Notes: generated by a model from the letters alone, not told the origin. Numbered from the stretch's first letter, positions 1 through 7,958 are shown. The stretch: 7,958 nt of DNA from a virus (IMGVR_UViG_2579778613_000007:1-7958); one strand, 5' to 3'. Program-made: numbers and translations.

Positions 1-228
1 GAGGGCTTTGCATTCTGCTTCGGTATACGTTTTACCGAGCATAATGTCTTTTCCGGTATGCCCGTAACATACAGTCCATACACCAACGATATCTTTATAT
101 GGTATGTAGCTGACGCCTTCCAGACCATCGTTACCACTTGGTCCAGTGATTAACACAGATGCTATAGCAATAGCCCCGCCACTTATCGCCGCTATTACGC
201 TATTTCGTAGTGCCGGTGACATTGCCAT
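1..228 (-). CDS. R: SAR endolysin (T4-lysozyme-type muramidase), phage 21 R-like; partial, 3' end lies beyond the window start
   Basis: ORF runs off position 1. ATG at 228-226 with GAGG 9 nt upstream (second ATG at 222-220). Translation [76 protein letters not shown]: Gly/Ala-rich signal-anchor-release segment followed by catalytic spacing E-x8-D-x5-T. Start overlaps the holin 3' end, as is usual in lambdoid lysis cassettes. Confidence 0.9.
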
Positions 229-403
229 TCAATCTGTCCTCGCGCTCTTTGCGCTTGTAGTACCAGTTGATGCCAAATGTGCCGACAGTACAAAGAATAC
301 CAATGATGACAGCCCAGTCATTCAGGGAGAGAATGCCACCCATCGCAGTCAGTCCTCCGAAGCTGTAACTGAACCATTCTCTGATTTTGTCCATACGGTA
401 CAT
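200..403 (-). CDS. Class II holin (pinholin-like, two predicted TM segments) with dual-start motif
   Basis: 67-aa [70 protein letters not shown]. Two hydrophobic segments, the first Gly/Ser-rich, and a charged C-terminus. Lies immediately upstream of and overlapping a SAR endolysin. Met1-Tyr-Arg-Met4 resembles holin/antiholin dual starts. SD GAAGGGG 6 nt upstream of Met1. Confidence 0.8.
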
Positions 404-409
404 GCTCTA

Positions 410-425
410 CCCCTTCATTGAGGGG
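410..425 (-). promoter_or_regulatory. Stem-loop sequestering the holin Shine-Dalgarno sequence (possible translational start-selection element)
   Basis: On the mRNA sense strand CCCCT-caatga-AGGGG forms a 5 bp stem whose 3' arm is the SD for holin Met1. Lambda carries an analogous hairpin (CCCCttattGGGGG, from memory) just upstream of S. Confidence 0.35.
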
Positions 426-530
426 ATTTGCTCTATTTAATTAGGAATAAGGTCGATTACTGATAGAACAAATCCAGGCTACTGTGTTTAGTAATCAGAT
501 TTGTTCGTGACCGATATGCACGGGCAAAAC

Positions 531-560
531 GGCAGGAGGTTGTTAGCGCGACCTCCTGCC
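531..560 (-). other. GC-rich perfect hairpin (10 bp stem, 10 nt loop) between tR' and the holin gene; possible attenuator or RNA processing element
   Basis: GGCAGGAGGT-tgttagcgcg-ACCTCCTGCC; on the minus strand it is followed by GTTTTG. I recall a near-identical hairpin at the same place in lambda. Confidence 0.3.
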
Positions 561-855
561 ACCCGCTTTCACGAAGATCATGTGTAGAAGGCAGCAGCGT
601 AACTATCACTGATGAATTCAGGATAGCCAGTGGCTACGGCTCAGTTTGGGTTGTGGCGGCCGGAATCGAACCGGCTTCCATCGGTGCGCTGCCGATTGCA
701 GTACGCGCGGCGGTCAGCTACATGACTAGTATTTTCACTGTCGCCTATCTGCTAGCTCGCCATTGAGCTTCACCACAACGATAAGAGCACTGCGCGGCAC
801 CTTTCACCAATTCCGCGAGGTCTGCGGGTTCAATGCTCTTACCTGTTGCACAGAT

Positions 856-913
856 ATAAAAAATCCCGAAACCGTTATGCAGGCTCTAACTATTACCTGC
901 GAACTGTTTCGGG
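856..913 (-). terminator. tR'-like rho-independent terminator of the late leader transcript
   Basis: Minus-strand stem CCCGAAAC...GTTTCGGG (865-913) containing an inner GCAGG...CCTGC hairpin, followed by ATTTTTTAT. Position is about 194 nt downstream of the inferred pR' start, as in lambda. Confidence 0.7.
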
Positions 914-1050
914 ATTGCATTTTGCAGACCTCTCAGCCTGCGATGGTTGGAGTTCCAGACGATACGTCGAAGTGACCAACTAGGCGGAATCGGTAGTAAG
1001 CGCCGCCTCTTTTTATCTCACTACCACAACGAGCGAATTAACCCATCGTT
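857..1050 (-). ncRNA. Lambda 6S-like late leader RNA (pR' start to tR')
   Basis: Interval between the inferred pR' +1 (plus coordinate 1050) and the tR' U-tract is 194 nt. The sequence is near-identical to what I recall of the lambda pR'-tR' region. No convincing ORF on this strand. Confidence 0.5.
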
Positions 1051-1085
1051 GGGTCAAATTTACCCAACTTTATTCAAAAAGTCAA
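1050..1085 (-). promoter_or_regulatory. Late promoter pR' with overlapping qut (Q-utilisation) region
   Basis: Minus-strand sequence TTGACT - 17 nt - TAAATT - TGACCC - AACGATGGG. The -35 and -10 hexamers have 17 nt spacing, and the -10-like AACGAT at +1..+6 matches the sigma-dependent pause element of lambda pR'. Located 43 nt downstream of the Q stop codon. Confidence 0.7.
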
Positions 1086-1127
1086 TATCATGCCGTTAAT
1101 ATGTTGCCATCCGTGGCAATCATGCTG

Positions 1128-1751
1128 CTAACGTGTGACCGCATTCAAAATGTTGTCTGCGATTGACTCTTCTTTGTGGCATTGCACCACCAGAGCGTCA
1201 TACAGCGGCTTAACAGTGCGTGACCAGGTGGGTTGGGTAAGATTTGGGATTAGCATCGTCACAGCGCGATATGCGGCGCTTGCTGGCATCCTTGAATAGC
1301 CGACACCTTTGCATCTTCCGCACTCTTTCTCAACAACTCTCCCCCACAGCTCTGTTTTGGCAATATCAACCGCACGGCCTGTACCGTGACAATCTCTGCA
1401 TCTTGCGCCCGGCGTCGCGGCACTACGGCAATAATCCGCATAAGCGAATGTTGCGAGCACTTGCAGTACCTTTGCCTTAGTATTTCCTTCAAGCTTTGCC
1501 ACACCACGGTATTTCCCCGATACCTTGTGTGCAAATTGCATCAGATAGTTGATAGCCTTTTGTTTGTCGTTCTGGCTGAGTTCATGCTTACCGCAGAATG
1601 CAGCCATTCCGAATCCGGCTTGTGATTGCGCCATCCCCATAGCAGCCATCACATCAGTACCGGAAAGAGAGTCAGAAGCCGTAGCCCGTGGTGAGTCGCT
1701 CATCATCGGGCTTTTTGGCGAATGAAATTTAGCTACGCTTTCGAGTCTCAT
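1128..1751 (-). CDS. Q: Late-gene antiterminator Q (lambda Q type, zinc-binding)
   Basis: 207-aa ORF MRLESVAKFHSPKSPMMSDSPRATASD...CRDCHGTGRAVD...CGRCKGVGYS...NAVTR with a Cys4 zinc motif; matches lambda Q as I recall it. Followed by pR'/qut. Start overlaps the ninH stop (ATGA). Confidence 0.95.
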   Translation of the reverse strand: MRLESVAKFHSPKSPMMSDSPRATASDSLSGTDVMAAMGMAQSQAGFGMAAFCGKHELSQNDKQKAINYLMQFAHKVSGKYRGVAKLEGNTKAKVLQVLATFAYADYCRSAATPGARCRDCHGTGRAVDIAKTELWGRVVEKECGRCKGVGYSRMPASAAYRAVTMLIPNLTQPTWSRTVKPLYDALVVQCHKEESIADNILNAVTR

Positions 1752-1936
1752 GGCCTTCCCCTTTTGCCCTGTTTGACCATCAGGACGCCGTTAACTATTA
1801 CGTGACGCTCGCCTTTGCTGTCTCGGTTGTACTTGAGCACTGTTCCTCTTGCGCAGGAAAGCATCCTCGCCACTTCGGTCTGATTTCCTCGTGTCTGGAT
1901 AAGAAGCTCTGGTATCGTTTGAATTGTGGCGTTCAT
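1748..1936 (-). CDS. ninH: NinH-like small DNA-binding protein
   Basis: 62-aa ORF MNATIQTIPELLIQTRGNQTEVARMLSCARGTVLKYNRDSKGERHVIVNGVLMVKQGKRGRP. Shares the GNQTEVAR..C.RGTV.KY core with lambda NinH. Sits directly upstream of Q; ATGA overlaps with both neighbours. Confidence 0.8.
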   Translation of the reverse strand: MNATIQTIPELLIQTRGNQTEVARMLSCARGTVLKYNRDSKGERHVIVNGVLMVKQGKRGRP

Positions 1937-2295
1937 GCGTTCTCCAGTTCGGTGATTTTTATTCCAAGCCTTCCGCCTGGTGCTTTCACACCACGAATTA
2001 CGCGAATGTCATCGAATTGCTCGTCGTCTTCCGCAAATCCGGCGTGGATAAGTGAGTCGAGTAAACCTTTCAGGATGTTATCGAGGTCGCGGCGGCGGGA
2101 GTCTGGAACGTCTGCGATTACTTTGATGCGGAGTCGTGATTTGGTGAAAATGTCTAACTTGAGTTGGCGGATGATTTTCTGAACGTCTTTTCGGTATTTC
2201 TGGCCTTTATCGCTGATGTGGTATTGGCTTCCCCGTCTTCGCCAGTAGGTATTCACCGACGGCGGGTATGGAAGCACAAACTGATATTCGTTCAT
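1933..2295 (-). CDS. rusA: RusA-family Holliday junction resolvase
   Basis: 120-aa ORF MNEYQFVLPYPPSVNTYWRRRG...DVPDSRRRDLDNILKGLLDSL...GGRLGIKITELENA with the RusA catalytic acidic motif (RRRDLDN). Strong SD GGAGGG 8 nt upstream of the ATG at 2295. Confidence 0.9.
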   Translation of the reverse strand: MNEYQFVLPYPPSVNTYWRRRGSQYHISDKGQKYRKDVQKIIRQLKLDIFTKSRLRIKVIADVPDSRRRDLDNILKGLLDSLIHAGFAEDDEQFDDIRVIRGVKAPGGRLGIKITELENA

Positions 2296-2708
2296 GGCTT
2301 AATCTTTCCCTCCTTCAGCAGTATCGCCTGGCTGAATACGACAAAGAGTGCGCGGGATTGCCACATCGAGTATCAGCAAGGAGAGAATATCAATCATCGG
2401 AACGCGGCAGAGAACGGTGTAACGCAGCCAAAAAGCGGTTCATTCAGAGCAACCCATGGAAAAGAAAAGCCCACATCATCGTGGGTAATTTTTTGCGCGA
2501 CGGTAAGCTAATCCGACCACCACAATGTGAGTGCTGCGGATCAGAATGTAAACCACAGGCGCACCACTGCGACTACAGCAAACCAACCGATGTGATGTGG
2601 CTCTGCAAGTCATGTCATGTCGAGTGGCACAAACATAACAAACCTATCTACCCAGAAGAGGAACCAGTAACTCTCCCCTTCCCTCGTCACGCTATTCACG
2701 CAATTTAA
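2268..2708 (+). CDS. HNH-like (His-Me finger) nuclease; start codon uncertain
   Basis: C-terminal motif CECCGSECKPQAHHCDYSKPTDVMWLCKSCHVEWHKH fits the HNH pattern CxxCG...HH...WLCxxCHxxxH. The stop TAA overlaps the SD of the next gene. The ATG at 2268 has no good SD and overlaps the rusA start on the opposite strand by 28 nt; the true start may be internal (for example TTG at 2358). Confidence 0.55.
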   Translation: MEAQTDIRSWLNLSLLQQYRLAEYDKECAGLPHRVSARREYQSSERGRERCNAAKKRFIQSNPWKRKAHIIVGNFLRDGKLIRPPQCECCGSECKPQAHHCDYSKPTDVMWLCKSCHVEWHKHNKPIYPEEEPVTLPFPRHAIHAI

Positions 2709-2716
2709 GGACTTAC

Positions 2717-3265
2717 ATGAATCACTTGATGGTTGACCTTGAAACAATGGGCAACGGGCCATACGCGCCAGTTATTTCTATTGGGGCGGTATTCTTTGAC
2801 CCGAATACCGGAGAAACAGGAGAAGAGTTCTCGGTAAATATCTCGCTTGAGTCATCAATGCGATATCGGGCGCGTCCTGACGCTTCAACGATTTTATGGT
2901 GGATGGAACAGAGTGAAGAAGCCAGAAAATCGCTAACCAGCAACACTCAGGAGCTTTCAACGGCTCTTTCATGGTTATCTGAATTCATCATAAAGAACGC
3001 TAACCACAAATTCGTTCAGGTTTGGGGGAATGGAGCATCATTTGACTGCGTTATTCTCCGAAACAGTTATTCGCTGACAGGGCAGCCAGTTCCGTGGCAG
3101 TGGTGGAATGACCGCGATGTAAGAACAATCGTCGAGCTTGGAAAGGTAATAGGATTCGACCCTAAGCGAGATATGCCATTCAAAGGAACTCGTCACAACG
3201 CGCTTGATGATGCCATCCACCAAGCCAAATACGTTTCAGCAATCTGGAAAAAATTAGCTAAATAA
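2717..3265 (+). CDS. DnaQ-like DEDDh 3'-5' exonuclease
   Basis: 182-aa ORF with all three exonuclease motifs: Exo I MVDLETMG (D, E), Exo II VWGNGASFD (D), Exo III HNALDDAIHQ (H, D). SD AAGGA 5 nt upstream of the ATG. Confidence 0.8.
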   Translation: MNHLMVDLETMGNGPYAPVISIGAVFFDPNTGETGEEFSVNISLESSMRYRARPDASTILWWMEQSEEARKSLTSNTQELSTALSWLSEFIIKNANHKFVQVWGNGASFDCVILRNSYSLTGQPVPWQWWNDRDVRTIVELGKVIGFDPKRDMPFKGTRHNALDDAIHQAKYVSAIWKKLAK

Positions 3266-3281
3266 TCAACAGGAGAAAATC

Positions 3282-3575
3282 ATGCCAGCGCCTCTGTATG
3301 GTGCGGATGACCCGCGCCGCTGTTCCGGCAATTCCGTATCGGAGGTGCTGGCTAAATTCAGAAAAAACTACGACCTGATAATGTCGCTACCGCAGGAAAC
3401 GAAAGAGGAAAAGGAATTTCGCCATTGTATATGGCTTGCAGAGAAAGAAGAACGCGAGCGAATTTACCAGACATCAATCCGACCATTCCGCAAAGCCACA
3501 TATACCCACTTCCCTGAAATTGACCCGCGCCTGCGTAATTACCGCTCACGCTATGGCGCTATCAGTAATGACTGA
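3282..3575 (+). CDS. Hypothetical protein (97 aa)
   Basis: ATG at 3282 preceded by AGGAG; co-oriented, 16 nt after the exonuclease stop. No recognisable domain. Confidence 0.6.
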
Positions 3576-3804: not shown

Positions 3805-4005
3805 ATGCTGGCAAAAATGCGCGATGTTGAAGGTGGGCGTATGCGCGTTGGCAATGATCCAGGTCGTGATGTTACCAATGAGGATGCTCAATTGGTGTGG
3901 CAACTGGTCATGGCTGAAGGTGGTGAGATCGCGTGGGAGCTGGATGATGGTTCTCGCATGGTGTTGAAGGCAGAAAAACAGGAGGCAACCAGTGAACAAG
4001 ATTGA
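3805..4005 (+). CDS. Hypothetical small protein; start uncertain (ORF open from TTG at 3775, first ATG at 3805, no clear SD)
   Basis: Open frame ...MLAKMRDVEGGRMRVGNDPGRDVTNEDAQLVWQLVMAEGGEIAWELDDGSRMVLKAEKQEATSEQD. Its 3' end overlaps the start of the next gene by 14 nt. It may be the downstream part of a frameshifted gene. Confidence 0.4.
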   Translation: MLAKMRDVEGGRMRVGNDPGRDVTNEDAQLVWQLVMAEGGEIAWELDDGSRMVLKAEKQEATSEQD

Positions 4006-4486
4006 CTATCAGGCACTGCGTGAGGCGGCAGAGCGTGCAATTCAGGCAATGGAACGCCTGTTAATGTTGCCAGTTGATGATGATCTGATAAGCGAACAGG
4101 AACTTAAAGATTTCGGTGTGGATATTGATGCGCTCAACGCCTTCAAATTTCTGGCCGGACCAGAAACCGTGCTGGCACTACTTGATGAACGGGAAGCAGA
4201 CAAAAAGCGCATTGCAGAACTGGAAGCTCGGGAAATAAAACCAGCCAAAGGTGAAGTTCTTGTCGTTGTTTCTGGTTTTACTGGTTGCGGAAAAAGCGCC
4301 ATTGCCGGGGAAATAGAAATCGCGATGAAGGCTATTGGTGTACCGGTTCAGTGGACTAATGGCGATGCGGAAAAGCGCATGACAGGAGCTGACTGGCTGA
4401 CAGCGATTGAGATGTACAAACCAACTGTGCGCATCGTGGAAGTTAATGTGCCACGCGTCGCTGGAATTCGCATCAAAGGAGAGTGA
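3992..4486 (+). CDS. Ead/Ea22-like early-region protein
   Basis: GTG start with AGGAGG 6 nt upstream. The N-terminal YQALREAAERA and central TVLALLDERE motifs match what I recall of Ead/Ea22-like prophage proteins. The C-terminal part carries a Walker-A-like GFTGCGKS. Confidence 0.6.
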   Translation: MNKIDYQALREAAERAIQAMERLLMLPVDDDLISEQELKDFGVDIDALNAFKFLAGPETVLALLDEREADKKRIAELEAREIKPAKGEVLVVVSGFTGCGKSAIAGEIEIAMKAIGVPVQWTNGDAEKRMTGADWLTAIEMYKPTVRIVEVNVPRVAGIRIKGE

Positions 4487-4487
4487 T

Positions 4488-4685
4488 ATGGATAAAAACA
4501 CCACTGCCTACTGGAGTCTGTCACTTGATACCGAATGTCCCAAATGTGGTCACAATTTCGATCTGCTTTGTGATCCAGATTTCTGGGAGTTTTCTGGAGC
4601 TAAACAGGCATGTGAAGAAATAAAAGGTTACGAAACATGCTGTCCAGAATGTAACCATGAATTTAAAACAGATTTCGTGTATTGA
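4488..4685 (+). CDS. Small zinc-ribbon protein (65 aa)
   Basis: MDKNTTAYWSLSLDTECPKCGHNFDLLCDPDFWEFSGAKQACEEIKGYETCCPECNHEFKTDFVY with two Cys pairs (CPKC ... CPEC). The ATG lies 1 nt after the upstream TGA within the repeated module AAAGGAGAGTGATATG. Confidence 0.6.
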   Translation: MDKNTTAYWSLSLDTECPKCGHNFDLLCDPDFWEFSGAKQACEEIKGYETCCPECNHEFKTDFVY

Positions 4686-4695
4686 GGCATAACAA

Positions 4696-4812
4696 ATGAC
4701 CACTATTACCAAAGAATGGCTACAGAAAACGATTACCAGCATTGAGTCAGCACGGGATGAAATGCCGTTCGGACTCGATGAAGATCAAAGCAACATGCTT
4801 ACCGCAATTTAA
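4696..4812 (+). CDS. Short ORF (38 aa), possibly the N-terminal remnant of a frameshifted gene
   Basis: ATGACCACTATTACC... (MTTITKEWLQKTITSIESARDEMPFGLDEDQSNMLTAI). Its first 11 nt are identical to the start of the DUF551-like gene at 4979, and the N-terminus resembles MTTIIDKK...LNELITNIEFAAR. Confidence 0.3.
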   Translation: MTTITKEWLQKTITSIESARDEMPFGLDEDQSNMLTAI

Positions 4813-4978
4813 AATTGCACTGGCATCACTGGAAGCAAAACCAATAGGTGCTTTCCACATTGCAGAACAGCAAGTTGACGGCACAAGTGACTATCTCAAG
4901 GATGGAGAATGGCCTATTGATAATGGGATTATTGAAGTCTACACCGCGCCGCCATGCTTCAGGGTAAAGGAGAGTGAT

Positions 4979-5542
4979 ATGACCACTATAATCGATAAGA
5001 AACAGTATCCAGGCGAGCAATATCTTAATGAGCTGATCACCAACATAGAGTTTGCTGCAAGGGCACCAGTTGAAGTCGTGAGAGCAATGGCAGCAGAGCT
5101 ACAGAAGCGGCGCGAAGCTGATAGTGCCGAACCTGCAAGTAATCATGAAGAGTTGCCACTTGATTATCTCCAAGGTCAAAAAGATGGTCTTGAATGGGCT
5201 GCGCAGCTTGCAGAAGCAAATCACCCACAAACTGGCGACTGGCTTTACGATGACCCGCTGGAGCTGGCTAAAGCTATCAGAAAAGGTCCTGACATGCCCG
5301 AATTCGATGGACCAGCTCCGGTAACTCCGGATGGCTGGATAAGCTGTAGTGAGCGAATGCCAGATGATGGTCAGCACGTAATTATTTTATGTGATGGCGC
5401 ATTCGTTCTTTATGCGCAATATCGAGACAGTGAGTTTTTTGATGTTGTCCGCAATGGTGAGGAGTTCTTCGAAACGCAGAGCCGCAATGTAACCCACTGG
5501 ATGCCGCTACCGGAACCGCCGCAGGAGGCTGACAATGGCTAA
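4979..5542 (+). CDS. DUF551-like phage protein; the same frame is open upstream to 4757/4742, so an N-terminally extended form is possible
   Basis: C-terminal PDGWISCSERMPDDGQHVIIL...NVTHWMPLPEPP is the pattern I associate with DUF551. The ATG at 4979 is preceded by AAAGGAGAGTGAT, the same RBS module as at 4475-4490. Confidence 0.65.
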   Translation: MTTIIDKKQYPGEQYLNELITNIEFAARAPVEVVRAMAAELQKRREADSAEPASNHEELPLDYLQGQKDGLEWAAQLAEANHPQTGDWLYDDPLELAKAIRKGPDMPEFDGPAPVTPDGWISCSERMPDDGQHVIILCDGAFVLYAQYRDSEFFDVVRNGEEFFETQSRNVTHWMPLPEPPQEADNG

Positions 5543-5819
5543 TCTGCAACTGGCAGTGAACGGCGAATACTTCGACCAGATGAAGCGGGGCGAGAAAACG
5601 GAAGAGTATCGCCTGTGTAATGACTACTGGAATAAGCGAATTATGTTCCGGGAGTATGACCGCCTGATTATCACAAAGGGATATCCGAAGCGCGACGATT
5701 CCAGTCGCAGAATTGATGTTCCGTATGGTGGATATGAAATCAAGACAATCACACATCCGCACTTCGGCGATAAACCGGTAAAGGTGTTCGCGATAAAGGT
5801 GAATATCGGCAATGAATAA
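5535..5819 (+). CDS. ASCH/PUA-like small protein (94 aa)
   Basis: MANLQLAVNGEYFDQMKRGEKTEEYRL... The G-x-K-T-x-E-x-R signature near the N-terminus and the size fit an ASCH-type fold. AGGAGG 6 nt upstream of the ATG; overlaps the DUF551-like gene stop by 8 nt. Confidence 0.5.
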   Translation: MANLQLAVNGEYFDQMKRGEKTEEYRLCNDYWNKRIMFREYDRLIITKGYPKRDDSSRRIDVPYGGYEIKTITHPHFGDKPVKVFAIKVNIGNE

Positions 5820-5822
5820 CAT

Positions 5823-5847
5823 CCTCGCACTCGCGGGGATTTCTTTT
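5823..5847 (+). terminator. Rho-independent terminator (first of a tandem pair)
   Basis: Stem CCTCGC-actc-GCGGGG (one G-U pair) followed by ATTTCTTTT, 4 nt after the ASCH-like stop codon. Confidence 0.55.
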
Positions 5848-5852
5848 ATCTG

Positions 5853-5877
5853 AACTCGCTACGGCGAGTTTTGTTTT
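5853..5877 (+). terminator. Rho-independent terminator (second of a tandem pair)
   Basis: Stem AACTCGC-tacg-GCGAGTT followed by TTGTTTT. Confidence 0.6.
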
Positions 5878-5890
5878 ATGGAGACAAGAA

Positions 5891-6235
5891 ATGTCAGATT
5901 TGGCTATGAAGATTTTGAAATGGCAATCGACTGGCGATGTCGGCATCAGTAGCGCAACTCTTGCCTCAATCGCATGTGGACTGAAAAAGAATATCTATGG
6001 TCATCACTTCGGCGCTCCACATGATGCAGCCGATTTCCGGCGATGCGTTGCACTTGTTGAGCAGATTCCAGAAATCAGAGATTCATTCGACAAGGTTGCA
6101 AAGCGCGTTCCGGCATTCAAAGGAATCCTCAACGAATGGGATTCACTCGTTGCTCTGTTGAAGTCTGAAATGAAGACGTACGGGAACAAAGCACCAGAGA
6201 CTTACAGAAGAATCAGCGAGCTACGCAAGGACTAA
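5891..6235 (+). CDS. Hypothetical protein (114 aa), moron-like gene flanked by terminators
   Basis: ATG at 5891 with GGAG 7 nt upstream. Product MSDLAMKILKWQSTGDVGISSATLASIACGLKKNIYGHHFGAPHDAADFRRCVALVEQIPEIRD... has no domain I recognise. Terminators lie on both sides. Confidence 0.6.
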   Translation: MSDLAMKILKWQSTGDVGISSATLASIACGLKKNIYGHHFGAPHDAADFRRCVALVEQIPEIRDSFDKVAKRVPAFKGILNEWDSLVALLKSEMKTYGNKAPETYRRISELRKD

Positions 6236-6292
6236 CCCGCCTCACACTCGATGAGGCATTTTCATTTATCAAGATATCCAGACCTACCATCG

Positions 6293-6313
6293 CCGCATCA
6301 ATGCGGTTTTTTT
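6293..6313 (+). terminator. Rho-independent terminator
   Basis: Stem CCGCA-tcaa-TGCGG followed by TTTTTTT, 58 nt after the stop of the 114-aa gene. Confidence 0.65.
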
Positions 6314-6358
6314 ATTGCCTGATTTGCAGGTTCGATTCCCTATTCGGAGATAGCACTC

Positions 6359-6559
6359 ATGCAACACGAACTACAACCTGATTCACTGGTTGATTTGAAA
6401 TTCATCATGGCCGATACTGGCTTCGGTAAAACCTTCATCTACGACCGGATTAAGTCCGGCGACCTGCCAAAAGCCAAAGTTATCCACGGACGAGCAAGAT
6501 GGTTATATCGTGACCATTGTGAGTTCAAAAATAAGCTCTTAAGTCGCGCCAATGGGTAA
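6359..6559 (+). CDS. AlpA/Xis-family excisionase-like DNA-binding protein
   Basis: 66-aa ORF MQHELQPDSLVDLKFIMADTGFGKTFIYDRIKSGDLPKAKVIHGRARWLYRDHCEF... Shows the AlpA-type winged-helix pattern (I..TG.GKT.IY..I..G..P...VI.GRA.W). GGAG 9 nt upstream of the ATG. Confidence 0.8.
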   Translation: MQHELQPDSLVDLKFIMADTGFGKTFIYDRIKSGDLPKAKVIHGRARWLYRDHCEFKNKLLSRANG

Positions 6560-6609
6560 AATAGCGGGTAAAATATTTTTCACATATAAAAAATACCATT
6601 CCAATCAAT

Positions 6610-6641
6610 CCCCTGCCGCTTCAAGTAGATGTCTGCAGGGG
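6610..6641. repeat. Inverted repeat CCCCTGC - 18 nt - GCAGGGG in the ORF-free tract
   Basis: Perfect 7 bp inverted repeat, preceded by an AT-rich stretch (6572-6598). Function unknown. Confidence 0.3.
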
Positions 6642-7035
6642 ACACCAGATACCCTTCAAACGAAATCTACCTTCACCCCGTAAAAGATGGGTTTGGCAGC
6701 ACACTTGCCTTATATCTACTCATTTTTACTGCAACAGGTTGAAATCTCAGCACTGTCAGAAAGCGCTGATGACTAAACAGCCCTGGGCCGGGCGATGTAA
6801 CCATCACACAGAATCCTGATAGCGAAATATGGCGTGACTCGATACTTCACTCCGCAATGCATTCCTTGATGAATTCGCAGGACCGTGATACACGGGACAG
6901 GTCACTGAATGACGACAATGTCCTGGAAATCAGCGAACCGCGCATCTGAAGTACATTTGAGCGACTGTACCAGAACATGAATGAGGCGTTTGGATTAGGC
7001 GATTATTAGCAGGGCTAAGCATTTTACTATTATTA

Positions 7036-7079
7036 TTTTCCGGTTGAGGGATATAGAGCTATCGACAACAACCGGAAAA
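7036..7079. repeat. Inverted repeat TTTTCCGGTTG - 22 nt - CAACCGGAAAA immediately 3' of the permease gene; possible bidirectional terminator or boundary hairpin
   Basis: Perfect 11 bp inverted repeat 10 nt downstream of the permease stop (7089-7091 on the minus strand). A/T tracts lie inside the stem rather than after it, so it is not a classical intrinsic terminator. Confidence 0.35.
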
Positions 7080-7088
7080 AGTTTACGT

Positions 7089-7958
7089 CTATATTGCTGA
7101 AGGTACAGGCGTTTCCATAACTATTTGCTCGCGTTTTTTACTCAAGAAGAAAATGCCAAATAGCAACATCAGGCAGACAATACCCGAAATTGCGAAGAAA
7201 ACTGTCTGGTAGCCTGCGTGGTCAAAGAGTATCCCAGTCGGCGTTGAAAGCAGCACAATCCCAAGCGAACTGGCAATTTGAAAACCAATCAGAAAGATCG
7301 TCGACGACAGGCGCTTATCAAAATTTGCCACGCTGTATTTGAAGACGGATATGACACAAAGTGGAACCTCAATAGCATGTAACAGCTTCACTAATGAAAT
7401 AATCCAGGGGTTAACGAACAGCGCGCAGGAAAGGATACGCAACGCCATAATCACAACACCGATAAGTAATGCATTTTTTGGCCCTACCCGATTCACAAAG
7501 AAAGGAATAATCGCCATGCATAGCGCTTCGAGTACCACCTGGAATGAGTTGAGATAACCATACAGGCGCGTTCCTACATCGTGTGATTCGAATAAACCTG
7601 CATAAAAGACAGGAAAAAGTTGTTGATCAAAAATGTTATAGAAAGACCACGTCCCCACAATAAATATGACGAAAACCCAGAAGTTTCGATCCTTGAAAAC
7701 TGCGATAAAATCCTCTTTTTTTACCCCTCCCGCATCCGCCGCTACGCACTGGTGATCCTTATCTTTAAAACACATGTTGATCATCATAAATACAGCGCCA
7801 AATAGCGAGACCAACCAGAAGTTGATATGGGGACTGATACTAAAAAATATGCCGGCAAAGAACGCGCCAATAGCATAGCCAAAAGATCCCCAGGCGCGCG
7901 CTGTTCCATATTCGAAATGAAAATTTCGCGCCATTTTTTCGGTGAAGCTGTCAAGCAA
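7089..7958 (-). CDS. LacY-family oligosaccharide:H+ symporter (MFS), possibly a CscB-like sucrose permease; partial, 5' end beyond the window end
   Basis: The 289-aa C-terminal portion aligns by eye with LacY: EKMARNFHFEYGTARAWG vs EKVSRRSNFEFGRARMFG, DQQLFPVFY vs DQQFANFF, PKNALLIGVVIMALRI vs GKNALLLAGTIMSVRI, LHAIEVP vs LHMFEVP (LacY H322/E325 region). Multiple hydrophobic TM segments. AT-rich codon usage unlike the phage part. Confidence 0.9.
   Translation of the reverse strand: MLDSFTEKMARNFHFEYGTARAWGSFGYAIGAFFAGIFFSISPHINFWLVSLFGAVFMMINMCFKDKDHQCVAADAGGVKKEDFIAVFKDRNFWVFVIFIVGTWSFYNIFDQQLFPVFYAGLFESHDVGTRLYGYLNSFQVVLEALCMAIIPFFVNRVGPKNALLIGVVIMALRILSCALFVNPWIISLVKLLHAIEVPLCVISVFKYSVANFDKRLSSTIFLIGFQIASSLGIVLLSTPTGILFDHAGYQTVFFAISGIVCLMLLFGIFFLSKKREQIVMETPVPSAI

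What the first reader, a model, noticed from the sequence alone, without database searches (positions are those of the whole stretch)
5535..5819. Stand-alone ASCH/PUA-like small protein translationally coupled to the DUF551-like gene
ASCH-type domains are predicted to bind RNA or modified nucleic acids, and PUA-like folds are recurrently linked to modification-sensing nucleases. A 94-aa ASCH-like protein as the last gene of the accessory operon, followed by tandem terminators, is a candidate for a role in host-phage conflict, for example masking or sensing modified bases. The function is unknown.
Basis: inference. Interest (0 to 1): 0.4.

Follow-up and report, generated by a model that had tools for sequence, protein, structure and literature searches.

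The report
Small ASCH-fold prophage accessory protein
The 94-codon gene is real and encodes a small ASCH/PUA-like protein, but databases already label it that way, it is very common in phages, prophages and IncC plasmids, and nobody has tested what it does.

Summary

It is not new. The identical protein is already named "ASCH domain-containing protein" (PHROG 625, function unknown). It occurs in 1559 of 5426 complete E. coli genomes, 332 phage records and 1283 plasmid records, mostly IncC.

Two details of the finding are wrong. It is not the last gene, because a 114-aa gene and torI follow on the same strand. DUF551 is not a specific partner either: the coupled upstream gene is highly variable, with DUF551 in 44% of close loci and 5% of diverse ones.

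The function is untested. My best guess is a nucleobase or nucleic-acid pocket protein, either a hydrolase or a reader, in the K21/E24/R26 class. The links to counter-restriction (nearby orphan methyltransferases, Lar-like zinc ribbons) are circumstantial. Interest is low.

The parts
5535..5819 (+). Gene for a 94-aa stand-alone ASCH-fold protein (PHROG 625; RefSeq name 'ASCH domain-containing protein' or 'RNA-binding protein'). Signature G19-x-K21-x-x-E24-x-R26; family-specific motifs G49-Y50-P51-K52 and T73-H74-P75-H76-F77-G78.
5524..5528 (+). Shine-Dalgarno-like GGAGG, 6 nt upstream of the ATG and inside the 3' end of the upstream gene.
   Evidence: Read directly from the sequence. The last ~6 codons of the upstream genes (PQEVNRG / PQEADNG) are conserved across relatives whose upstream genes are otherwise unrelated.
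5535..5542 (+). 8-nt overlap ATGGCTAA between the ASCH start codon and the stop codon of the upstream gene. Translational coupling is inferred from it.
   Evidence: The same 8-nt overlap (mostly GTGGCTAA) or a 1-nt TAATG overlap occurs in nearly all of 80 close relatives. Overlaps of 1, 4 or 8 nt occur in 33 of 77 diverse loci.
4979..5542 (+). Upstream DUF551-domain gene at its probable true extent (187 aa, ATG 4979 preceded by AAGGAG). ORF listing extends it to TTG 4742 (266 aa) through a remnant of another gene.
   Evidence: Pfam DUF551 E 8e-22 at residues 198-261 of the 266-aa ORF. A 187-aa homologue starts at the equivalent Met in L059. Sequence context.
5821..5840 (+). First terminator-like hairpin (8 bp, 5 G-C pairs) followed by TTCTTTT.
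5852..5871 (+). Second terminator-like hairpin (8 bp) followed by TTGTTTT.
   Evidence: The sequence is conserved downstream of the gene in many relatives, where it appears as a spurious ORF reading through it (MNNNPRTRGDFFYLNSLRRVLFYGDD...).
5891..6235 (+). Context only: the next co-directional gene (114 aa, PHROG 1229, unknown function). It shows that the ASCH gene is not the last gene. Another hairpin pair follows it at 6239-6257 and 6292-6307.
6359..6559 (+). Context only: TorI-type excisionase gene, the end of the leftward early region. No integrase lies between it and cscB.

Best explanation
The locus encodes a small, basic, stand-alone ASCH-fold (PUA-like beta-barrel) protein. It is a self-contained accessory cassette in the leftward early ('ea') region of a KplE1/P22-like prophage.

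Expression (inferred): the gene would be transcribed with the early-left operon. Its translation would be coupled to whichever gene lies upstream, because the cassette carries its own SD and start codon inside the last codons of that gene. The twin terminators behind it would stop any transcription that is not antiterminated.

Mechanism (inferred, not shown): the conserved K21/E24/R26 residues line a pocket, as in YqfB and EOLA1. The family-specific invariant residues (W32, R35, G49-Y50-P51, H74) may contribute to it, but I could not map them on the model. The pocket would accept a nucleobase, either free or flipped out of single-stranded RNA or DNA. The protein would then hydrolyse an exocyclic modification, as YqfB and EOLA1 do with N4-acetylcytidine, or simply read the base. 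The probable benefit is to a mobile element soon after it enters a cell. A counter-restriction or nucleic-acid-modification role is possible but unproven.

How sure I am of each step:
- Real gene: about 0.98.
- ASCH fold: about 0.9.
- Independent cassette with no obligate partner: about 0.8.
- Binds a nucleobase or nucleic acid: about 0.7.
- Catalytic rather than a pure reader: about 0.4.
- Role in counter-defence: about 0.2.
For: Gene and fold:
- PHROG 625 at E 4.7e-50 and pN/pS about 0.09.
- AF2 model with pLDDT 83 and topology beta1-alpha1-beta2-alpha2-beta3-6.
- Foldseek ranks 3IUW first (probability 0.97), then PH0355, PF0470, ZmASCH and YqfB.
- 23 of 41 family members give sub-threshold Pfam ASCH hits, and no other family recurs.
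- A profile search of PDB sequences weakly aligns the N-terminal motif to the same 3IUW and PF0470 chains.

Pocket:
- G19, K21, E24 and R26 are invariant in alignments A1, A3 and A4, including the IncC plasmid and Helicobacter prophage homologues.
- hhalign puts residues 10-26 in register with YqfB 10-26, so K21 pairs with K21 and R26 with R26 (not significant on its own).
- YqfB's catalytic residues are K21, T24, R26 and E74 (PMC9599836).
- EOLA1 and the TRIP4-like clade use K21, E24 and R26, and EOLA1 is reported to deacetylate free ac4C (bioRxiv 10.64898/2026.08.01.741249).

Nucleic-acid link:
- The window protein has pI 9.0. The family median is 9.5, and 44 of 50 members are above 8.
- Several longer family members carry Cys4 zinc-ribbon N-terminal extensions.

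Cassette behaviour:
- The upstream proteins fall into 106 clusters across 162 loci, yet the overlap junction is conserved.
- In a closely related prophage the same slot holds an 'Eag' gene instead.

Mobile-element and establishment context:
- The family is in 332 phage records, including virulent Jerseyviruses.
- It is in 1283 plasmid records, 1025 of them conjugative. In the one IncC plasmid examined it lies in a run of co-directional genes that includes a cytosine methyltransferase.
- Co-directional DNA methyltransferases lie within 4 kb in 21 of 80 diverse loci.
- A BFVD structural match is named 'restriction alleviation protein'.
Against: - There is no experimental datum for this family, and no paper in the library characterises it.
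- Pfam ASCH is below its gathering score, NCBIfam gives nothing, and a sequence search of the PDB gives no significant hit.
- I could not map the conserved residues on the model, so the claim that the family-specific residues line the K/E/R pocket is inference.
- The YqfB nucleophile Thr24 is replaced by Glu here. The Ser/Thr said to be universal at position 7 of the TRIP4-like clade is Ala here.
- Activity of bacterially expressed mouse EOLA1 was reported as undetectable.
- The methyltransferase neighbours belong to several unrelated classes, there is no matched control, and the window itself holds no methyltransferase.
- PADLOC finds nothing.
Confidence: 0.45

Rival explanations
1. A non-catalytic RNA-binding protein. 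The ASCH barrel binds a host or phage RNA and modulates its translation or processing early in infection. This is the classical Iyer-Burroughs-Aravind prediction for ASCH and the basis of the 'RNA-binding protein' label.
For: Some records name the family 'RNA-binding protein'. The family is basic, with median pI 9.5. The literature describes the ASCH/PUA superfamily as RNA-associated.
Against: Many polar residues are invariant in a 94-aa protein (K21, E24, R26, R35, H74, and in most members E23, D55, T73, H76). That looks more like a ligand or catalytic pocket than a binding surface. The stand-alone ASCH proteins YqfB and EOLA1 act as enzymes, and YqfB lacks RNA-binding activity. No RNA partner or conserved neighbouring RNA gene was found, and Rfam matched nothing in the window.
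Confidence: 0.25
2. A metal-dependent single-stranded-RNA ribonuclease like Zymomonas ZmASCH, degrading host or competitor transcripts.
Against: ZmASCH is about 140 aa, and its key residues (Tyr47, Lys53, Ser128) lie in elements that this 94-aa protein cannot be shown to share. ZmASCH activity is described as weak, and its cleft lacks conserved acidic residues. Smaller ASCH proteins match better than ZmASCH.
Confidence: 0.12
3. One half of a two-gene DUF551-ASCH functional pair, as the finding's title implies: the two proteins would act together.
For: The two genes overlap by 8 nt here. DUF551 is the upstream neighbour in 37 of 85 enterobacterial loci. In Salmonella phage SETP13 the two genes are adjacent in the opposite order.
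Against: Upstream genes fall into 106 clusters across 162 loci. They include a small protein of unknown function, TraR/DksA zinc fingers, Lar-like proteins, HNH nucleases and methyltransferases. DUF551 is upstream in only 4 of 77 diverse loci. Clustering all ORFs within 4 kb in 80 diverse loci found no shared neighbour family. DUF551 modules are simply abundant in enterobacterial 'ea' regions.
Confidence: 0.08
4. A lysogen-protecting defence component: a modification sensor of the PUA type that directs a nuclease against incoming modified phage DNA.
Against: The protein is stand-alone, with no fused or conserved adjacent nuclease. No PADLOC model matches. No promoter-like site was found in 4400-6700. 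The gene is also carried by virulent Jerseyviruses and by conjugative plasmids, which fits an element-serving role better than a host-serving one.
Confidence: 0.05

Closest known systems
E. coli YqfB, a stand-alone ASCH N4-acetylcytidine amidohydrolase (PDB 1TE7, 9KYF-9KYH)
   Different: The YqfB nucleophile Thr24 is Glu here. No significant sequence similarity (hhalign E 0.12; phmmer finds nothing). YqfB is a chromosomal housekeeping gene, linked to tmcA in some genomes. This gene is carried by phages and plasmids.
Human EOLA1 and the TRIP4-like ASCH clade
   Same: The same K21/E24/R26 triad that the EOLA1 preprint calls the active motif. EOLA1 is also a stand-alone ASCH protein. Prokaryotic members of that clade are reported next to R-M and base-modification systems.
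Small prokaryotic ASCH proteins of unknown function: E. faecalis 3IUW, Pyrococcus PH0355 (2Z0T) and PF0470 (1XNE)
   Different: Sequence identity is only 16-24%, and those proteins are uncharacterised too. BFVD matches named 'DUF3850 domain-containing protein' also appear, but Pfam DUF3850 hits to this family are sub-threshold and rare.
Zymomonas mobilis ZmASCH ribonuclease (PDB 5GUQ)
   Different: About 50 aa larger. Its functional residues Tyr47, Lys53 and Ser128 could not be mapped here. It is a chromosomal gene.
EVE, YTH and SRA modified-base readers in modification-dependent restriction enzymes
   Different: Those domains are fused to or operonic with nucleases and use aromatic cages. This protein is stand-alone and has the ASCH K/E/R motif instead.

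Membership tests
ASCH superfamily (PUA-like clan) | [quoted passage not shown] | tested here: met
ASCH superfamily (PUA-like clan) | Conserved N-terminal octapeptide GxKxxExR. | tested here: met
   G19-E-K21-T-E-E24-Y-R26. G19, K21, E24 and R26 are invariant in A1 (41 sequences), A3 (26) and A4 (9 distant sequences).
ASCH superfamily (PUA-like clan) | Score at or above the Pfam PF04266 gathering threshold. | tested here: not met
   14.3 bits against a cut-off of 21.2, E 0.071. 23 of 41 relatives give only sub-threshold hits, best E 0.0028. The precomputed Pfam field is empty for every homologue listed.
YqfB-type N4-acylcytidine amidohydrolases | Catalytic residues Lys21, Thr24, Arg26 and Glu74. 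| tested here: not met
   K21 and R26 are present, but position 24 is an invariant Glu, not Thr or Ser. The equivalent of Glu74 could not be assigned without a structural alignment.
TRIP4/EOLA1-like ASCH clade | K21/E24/R26 active motif. | tested here: met
   All three are invariant. The motif definition comes from bioRxiv 10.64898/2026.08.01.741249.
TRIP4/EOLA1-like ASCH clade | Ser/Thr at position 7, said to be universal in the clade, and phylogenetic placement within the clade. | tested here: inconclusive
ZmASCH-type ssRNA ribonuclease | Tyr47, Lys53 and Ser128 in a basic cleft, with Mg2+-dependent ssRNA cleavage. | not testable with these tools
Modification-dependent restriction endonucleases (PUA sensor plus nuclease) | Sensor domain fused to, or in a conserved operon with, a nuclease domain. 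| tested here: not met
   The protein is a 94-aa single domain. The longer relatives carry no nuclease domain. There is no conserved neighbour family in 80 diverse loci and no PADLOC hit.
DUF3850 (PF12961) small ASCH-like proteins | Score at or above the Pfam PF12961 gathering threshold. | tested here: not met
   Only sub-threshold hits in a few relatives (2 of 41; P0294 at 18.8 bits against 22.9), although BFVD proteins named DUF3850 match structurally.

The most novel reading that the evidence does not exclude
This phage- and plasmid-borne ASCH subfamily (PHROG 625; K21/E24/R26 plus GYPK/THPHFG) is an establishment-phase counter-defence enzyme. It would recognise, and perhaps hydrolytically erase or shield, a modified nucleobase in incoming element DNA, in RNA or in the nucleotide pool. 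It would work alongside orphan DNA methyltransferases and Lar-type restriction-alleviation zinc ribbons, which would explain why it sits in early-left phage operons and in the IncC plasmid backbone.
Probability: 0.15. Interest if true: 0.6.

Novelty: already known. Interest (0 to 1): 0.2.

Why it matters
As it stands, this is a correct re-discovery of an existing annotation, so it matters little. It would matter more if someone determined the function. The family is very widespread: about 29% of complete E. coli genomes, Stx-converting phages, Jerseyviruses used in biocontrol, and more than a thousand IncC and related resistance plasmids. It keeps the exact K/E/R pocket that YqfB and EOLA1 use to deacetylate N4-acetylcytidine. 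A function in processing modified bases or in counter-restriction would add a new class of small anti-defence or nucleic-acid-editing proteins on mobile elements. It would also give the first role to a phage ASCH protein.

Tried and rejected
- Sequence searches of the PDB with the protein and with two family profiles gave no significant hits. The chance-level hits were ribosomal L15, a xylosidase and Rv1816; the weak N-terminal matches to 3IUW and 1XNE had E about 1.
- hhalign of the family profile against YqfB aligned only the 17-residue motif (E 0.12).
- NCBIfam and PADLOC returned nothing for the protein. Rfam and tRNA scans of the window were empty.
- Pfam scans of 20 longer family members, looking for informative fusions, gave one Ead/Ea22 read-through fusion, a weak reverse-transcriptase hit and weak zinc-ribbon hits. 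There was no nuclease or other enzyme domain.
- The AFDB50 fold library was unavailable.
It was repeated with A3.
- Greedy gene calling in high-GC loci lost the ASCH gene to antisense shadow ORFs in 39 of 80 loci. I replaced it with six-frame ORF clustering.
- A local Lar-type HMM found no further Lar-like upstream genes in the diverse set, so the Lar link rests on one enterobacterial cluster, a few fusions and one BFVD name.
- I rejected the antisense ORF 5382..5822 as the real gene, because it is broken by stop codons in all close homologues.
- I rejected DUF551 as an obligate partner.
- I rejected 'last gene of the operon'.

Full report

The window has an ATG-initiated ORF at 5535..5819 (+) of 94 codons. 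Its ATG overlaps the TAA stop of the upstream ORF (ending 5542) in the string ATGGCTAA. A GGAGG lies 6 nt upstream of the ATG.

It is clearly a gene:
- It matches PHROG 625 over its full length (E 4.7e-50).
- It has 629 homologues in the 90%-clustered protein collection. A family profile finds 2699 clusters at 50% identity, 554 of them at E no higher than 1e-10.
- Against 59 distinct close alleles, synonymous differences far exceed non-synonymous ones (pS 0.285, pN 0.025, ratio about 0.09).
- The longer antisense ORF 5382..5822 is interrupted by 1-7 stops in all 77 close homologues, so it is a shadow ORF.

Two hairpins, each followed by a T-run, lie directly downstream at 5821-5840 and 5852-5871. 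That region folds at -26 kcal/mol, with z = -5.3 against shuffles.

**2. Is it ASCH?**

By sequence alone the case is weak. Pfam ASCH scores 14.3 bits against a gathering score of 21.2. NCBIfam finds nothing. PDB sequence searches give nothing significant. The signal is consistent, however: 23 of 41 family members give sub-threshold ASCH hits and no other family recurs.

The ASCH signature GxKxxExR is present as G19-E-K21-T-E-E24-Y-R26. Its four defining residues are invariant across Enterobacterales, alpha- and betaproteobacterial, IncC plasmid and Helicobacter prophage homologues.

The structural scores are moderate, and this is a divergent subfamily that the Pfam model misses.

**3. Is it new?**

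No. The identical 94-aa sequence is in NCBI and UniRef as "ASCH domain-containing protein [Escherichia coli]", seen on 79 contigs and belonging to a 1351-member 90% cluster. The gene matches in 1559 of 5426 complete E. coli genomes, where it is annotated as an ASCH domain-containing or RNA-binding protein.

It occurs in 332 phage records. These include Stx-converting phages, phage 21 (upstream of xis-int), phiV10, virulent Jerseyviruses such as SETP13, Ralstonia phages and Brucella phage BiPBO1. Papers that mention it only repeat the generic RNA-binding prediction. I found no functional study.

**4. Anatomy and context**

The window is the left arm of a KplE1/P22-like prophage. Running rightward on the + strand it holds:
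- an HNH-like gene;
- an Rv2179c-like 3'-5' exonuclease;
- Abc2 anti-RecBCD;
- DUF7446;
- an Ead/Ea22-like gene;
- a zinc-ribbon gene;
- the DUF551 gene;
- ASCH;
- a 114-aa gene;
- torI.

The host sucrose permease gene cscB then follows on the opposite strand. The ASCH gene is therefore not the last gene, since two co-directional genes follow it. If the early-left transcript is antiterminated as in lambdoid phages (textbook knowledge, not tested here), the twin terminators would be read through during lytic growth.

The 266-aa "DUF551" ORF is an over-extension. A 38-codon ORF at 4696..4812 matches the N-terminus of an Ea-type protein and then shifts frame into the 4742 ORF. A strong AAGGAG-N7-ATG at 4979 starts a 187-aa protein that is collinear with an intact homologue. 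The coupling to ASCH is unaffected.

**5. Is DUF551 a partner?**

No. In 80 close viral loci, the reference phage locus and the window, the upstream gene ends in the same 8-nt (ATGGCTAA or GTGGCTAA) or 1-nt (TAATG) overlap. The gene itself varies from 65 to 434 aa. It is DUF551-like in 37 of 85 loci. In the rest it is a small protein of unknown function, a TraR/DksA zinc finger, a Lar-like protein, or something else. Only the last ~6 codons (PQEVNRG or PQEADNG) are shared, and these carry the ASCH ribosome-binding site. So the mosaic junction sits just upstream of the ASCH cassette.

In 77 diverse proteobacterial loci DUF551 is upstream in only 4. Across 162 loci the upstream proteins form 106 clusters. 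Clustering every ORF within 4 kb in 80 diverse loci finds no shared neighbour family apart from tyrosine integrases 1-2 kb downstream in 17 loci. In a closely related prophage at the same csc site, the slot is occupied by an Eag gene instead. The gene behaves as an autonomous, exchangeable cassette.

**6. Mechanism**

What is shown:
- a basic protein (pI 9.0; family median 9.5);
- an ASCH fold;
- an invariant K21/E24/R26 motif;
- additional near-invariant polar and aromatic residues: Y12, F13, E23, W32, R35, G49-Y50-P51-K52, D55 and T73-H74-P75-H76-F77-G78.

What is known from relatives:
- YqfB hydrolyses N4-acetylcytidine using K21, T24, R26 and E74 (PMC9599836).
- The TRIP4-like clade has K21, E24 and R26, and human EOLA1 is reported to deacetylate free ac4C with R26 essential. 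Prokaryotic members of that clade lie next to R-M and base-modification systems (bioRxiv 10.64898/2026.08.01.741249).
- ZmASCH binds nucleic acids and weakly cleaves ssRNA with Mg2+ (PMC5615036).

My inference is that the phage protein uses the same pocket to accept a nucleobase, and either hydrolyses an exocyclic group or reads the base. I could not extract model coordinates. The placement of the family-specific residues around the pocket is therefore unverified, and I cannot separate enzyme from reader.

**7. Leads towards host-element conflict (circumstantial)**

- A 52-56%-identical homologue that keeps all motif residues occurs in most of the 1283 matching plasmid records, of which 1025 are conjugative. 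The one locus examined, on an IncC plasmid, places it as the last of a run of co-directional genes that includes a DNA cytosine methyltransferase, close to mobH/traD.
- Co-directional DNA methyltransferases of four different Pfam classes lie within 4 kb in 21 of 80 diverse loci. Thirteen of these loci have one within 1 kb, and some are adjacent. The Helicobacter prophage copy sits between two methyltransferases.
- Several 145-170-aa family members carry N-terminal Cys4 zinc ribbons, one of them Lar-like by eye. A Lar-like protein is the coupled upstream gene in five enterobacterial loci. A BFVD structural match (26% identity, E 6e-6) is named "restriction alleviation protein".
- Orphan methyltransferases and anti-defence genes are known to cluster in the regions of mobile elements that enter the cell first (PMC11541004).

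None of this is controlled. The methyltransferases are of mixed types. The window itself has no methyltransferase. PADLOC has no model for the protein. These genes may simply share the same accessory neighbourhoods.

**8. Verdict**

The "last gene" and "DUF551 partner" details are wrong, and the conflict role remains speculation. This is an already annotated, very common mobile-element gene of unknown function. Interest is low unless the function is tested.

Noticed in passing
window 4696-4978: Frameshifted remnant of an Ea-type gene. ORF 4696..4812 (MTTITKEWLQKTITSIESARDEMPFGLDEDQSNMLTAI*) matches the N-terminus of intact relatives, then continues in another frame (KIALASLEA...) inside the 4742 ORF. 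The intact DUF551 gene probably starts at ATG 4979 behind AAGGAG. This could be a sequencing error or a real pseudogene.
   Followed up: partly
window 5891-6307: The 114-aa gene 5891..6235 (PHROG 1229, unknown function, no Pfam hit) is bracketed by two pairs of terminator-like hairpins (5821-5871 and 6239-6307). No sigma-70-like promoter was detected in 4400-6700. In relatives this slot alternates with a 55-aa gene or others.
   Followed up: partly
window 6359-7958; L001 (ON470594.1): The excisionase is TorI-type (KplE1-like), and no integrase lies between it and the host sucrose permease gene cscB (7089..7958, minus strand). The deposited genome of Escherichia phage vB_EcoP-683R2 contains the whole cscB-cscK-cscA-cscR sucrose operon next to the same xis. 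Either the phage record includes host flank, or the phage carries csc.
   Followed up: no
window 200-2708: A holin-like ORF, antiterminator Q (1128..1751) and RusA (1933..2295) lie on the minus strand. They abut, with a 28-nt overlap of 5' ends, the plus-strand HNH-like gene (2268..2708). The immunity and replication region expected between them is absent, so this is probably a deleted or rearranged, likely defective, prophage.
   Followed up: no
window 3992-4486: The Ead/Ea22-like protein (Pfam E 3e-19 over residues 3-80) has a C-terminal half with a Walker-A-like GCGKS motif and weak P-loop kinase hits (APS kinase, AAA_16; E about 0.03-0.06).
   Followed up: no
window 2717-3575: An Rv2179c-like 3'-5' exoribonuclease-domain gene (E 2.8e-73) is followed directly by the P22 Abc2 anti-RecBCD gene (E 6e-64). 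This is a known counter-defence and recombination module upstream of the ea genes.
   Followed up: no
L167 (IncC plasmid pT1, NZ_KX147633.1) 7986-8264: A 52-56%-identical homologue occurs in most of the 1283 matching plasmid records, 1025 of them conjugative. In the one IncC plasmid examined it ends a run of co-directional hypothetical genes that includes a DNA cytosine methyltransferase, between korB/N6-methylase and topB/mobH. All ASCH motif residues are kept.
   Followed up: partly
L086-L165, L003: Co-directional DNA methyltransferase genes (C5, N6_N4, D12 and N6_Mtase classes) lie within 4 kb of the ASCH gene in 21 of 80 diverse loci, and several are adjacent. There is no matched control, so this may only reflect shared accessory neighbourhoods.
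   Followed up: partly
proteins P0256, P0272, P0283, P0294, P0329; loci L026, L029, L031, L037, L040: Cys4 zinc-ribbon modules recur, fused to the N-terminus of family members or encoded by the coupled upstream gene. Some look like the Lar restriction-alleviation family by eye. One BFVD structural match is named 'restriction alleviation protein'.
   Followed up: partly
L166 (NZ_AP022173.1) 6284-7424: In a closely related prophage at the same csc-adjacent site, the position between the DUF551 gene and the 114-aa gene holds an 'Eag protein' gene instead of ASCH. This illustrates cassette exchange at that slot.
   Followed up: no
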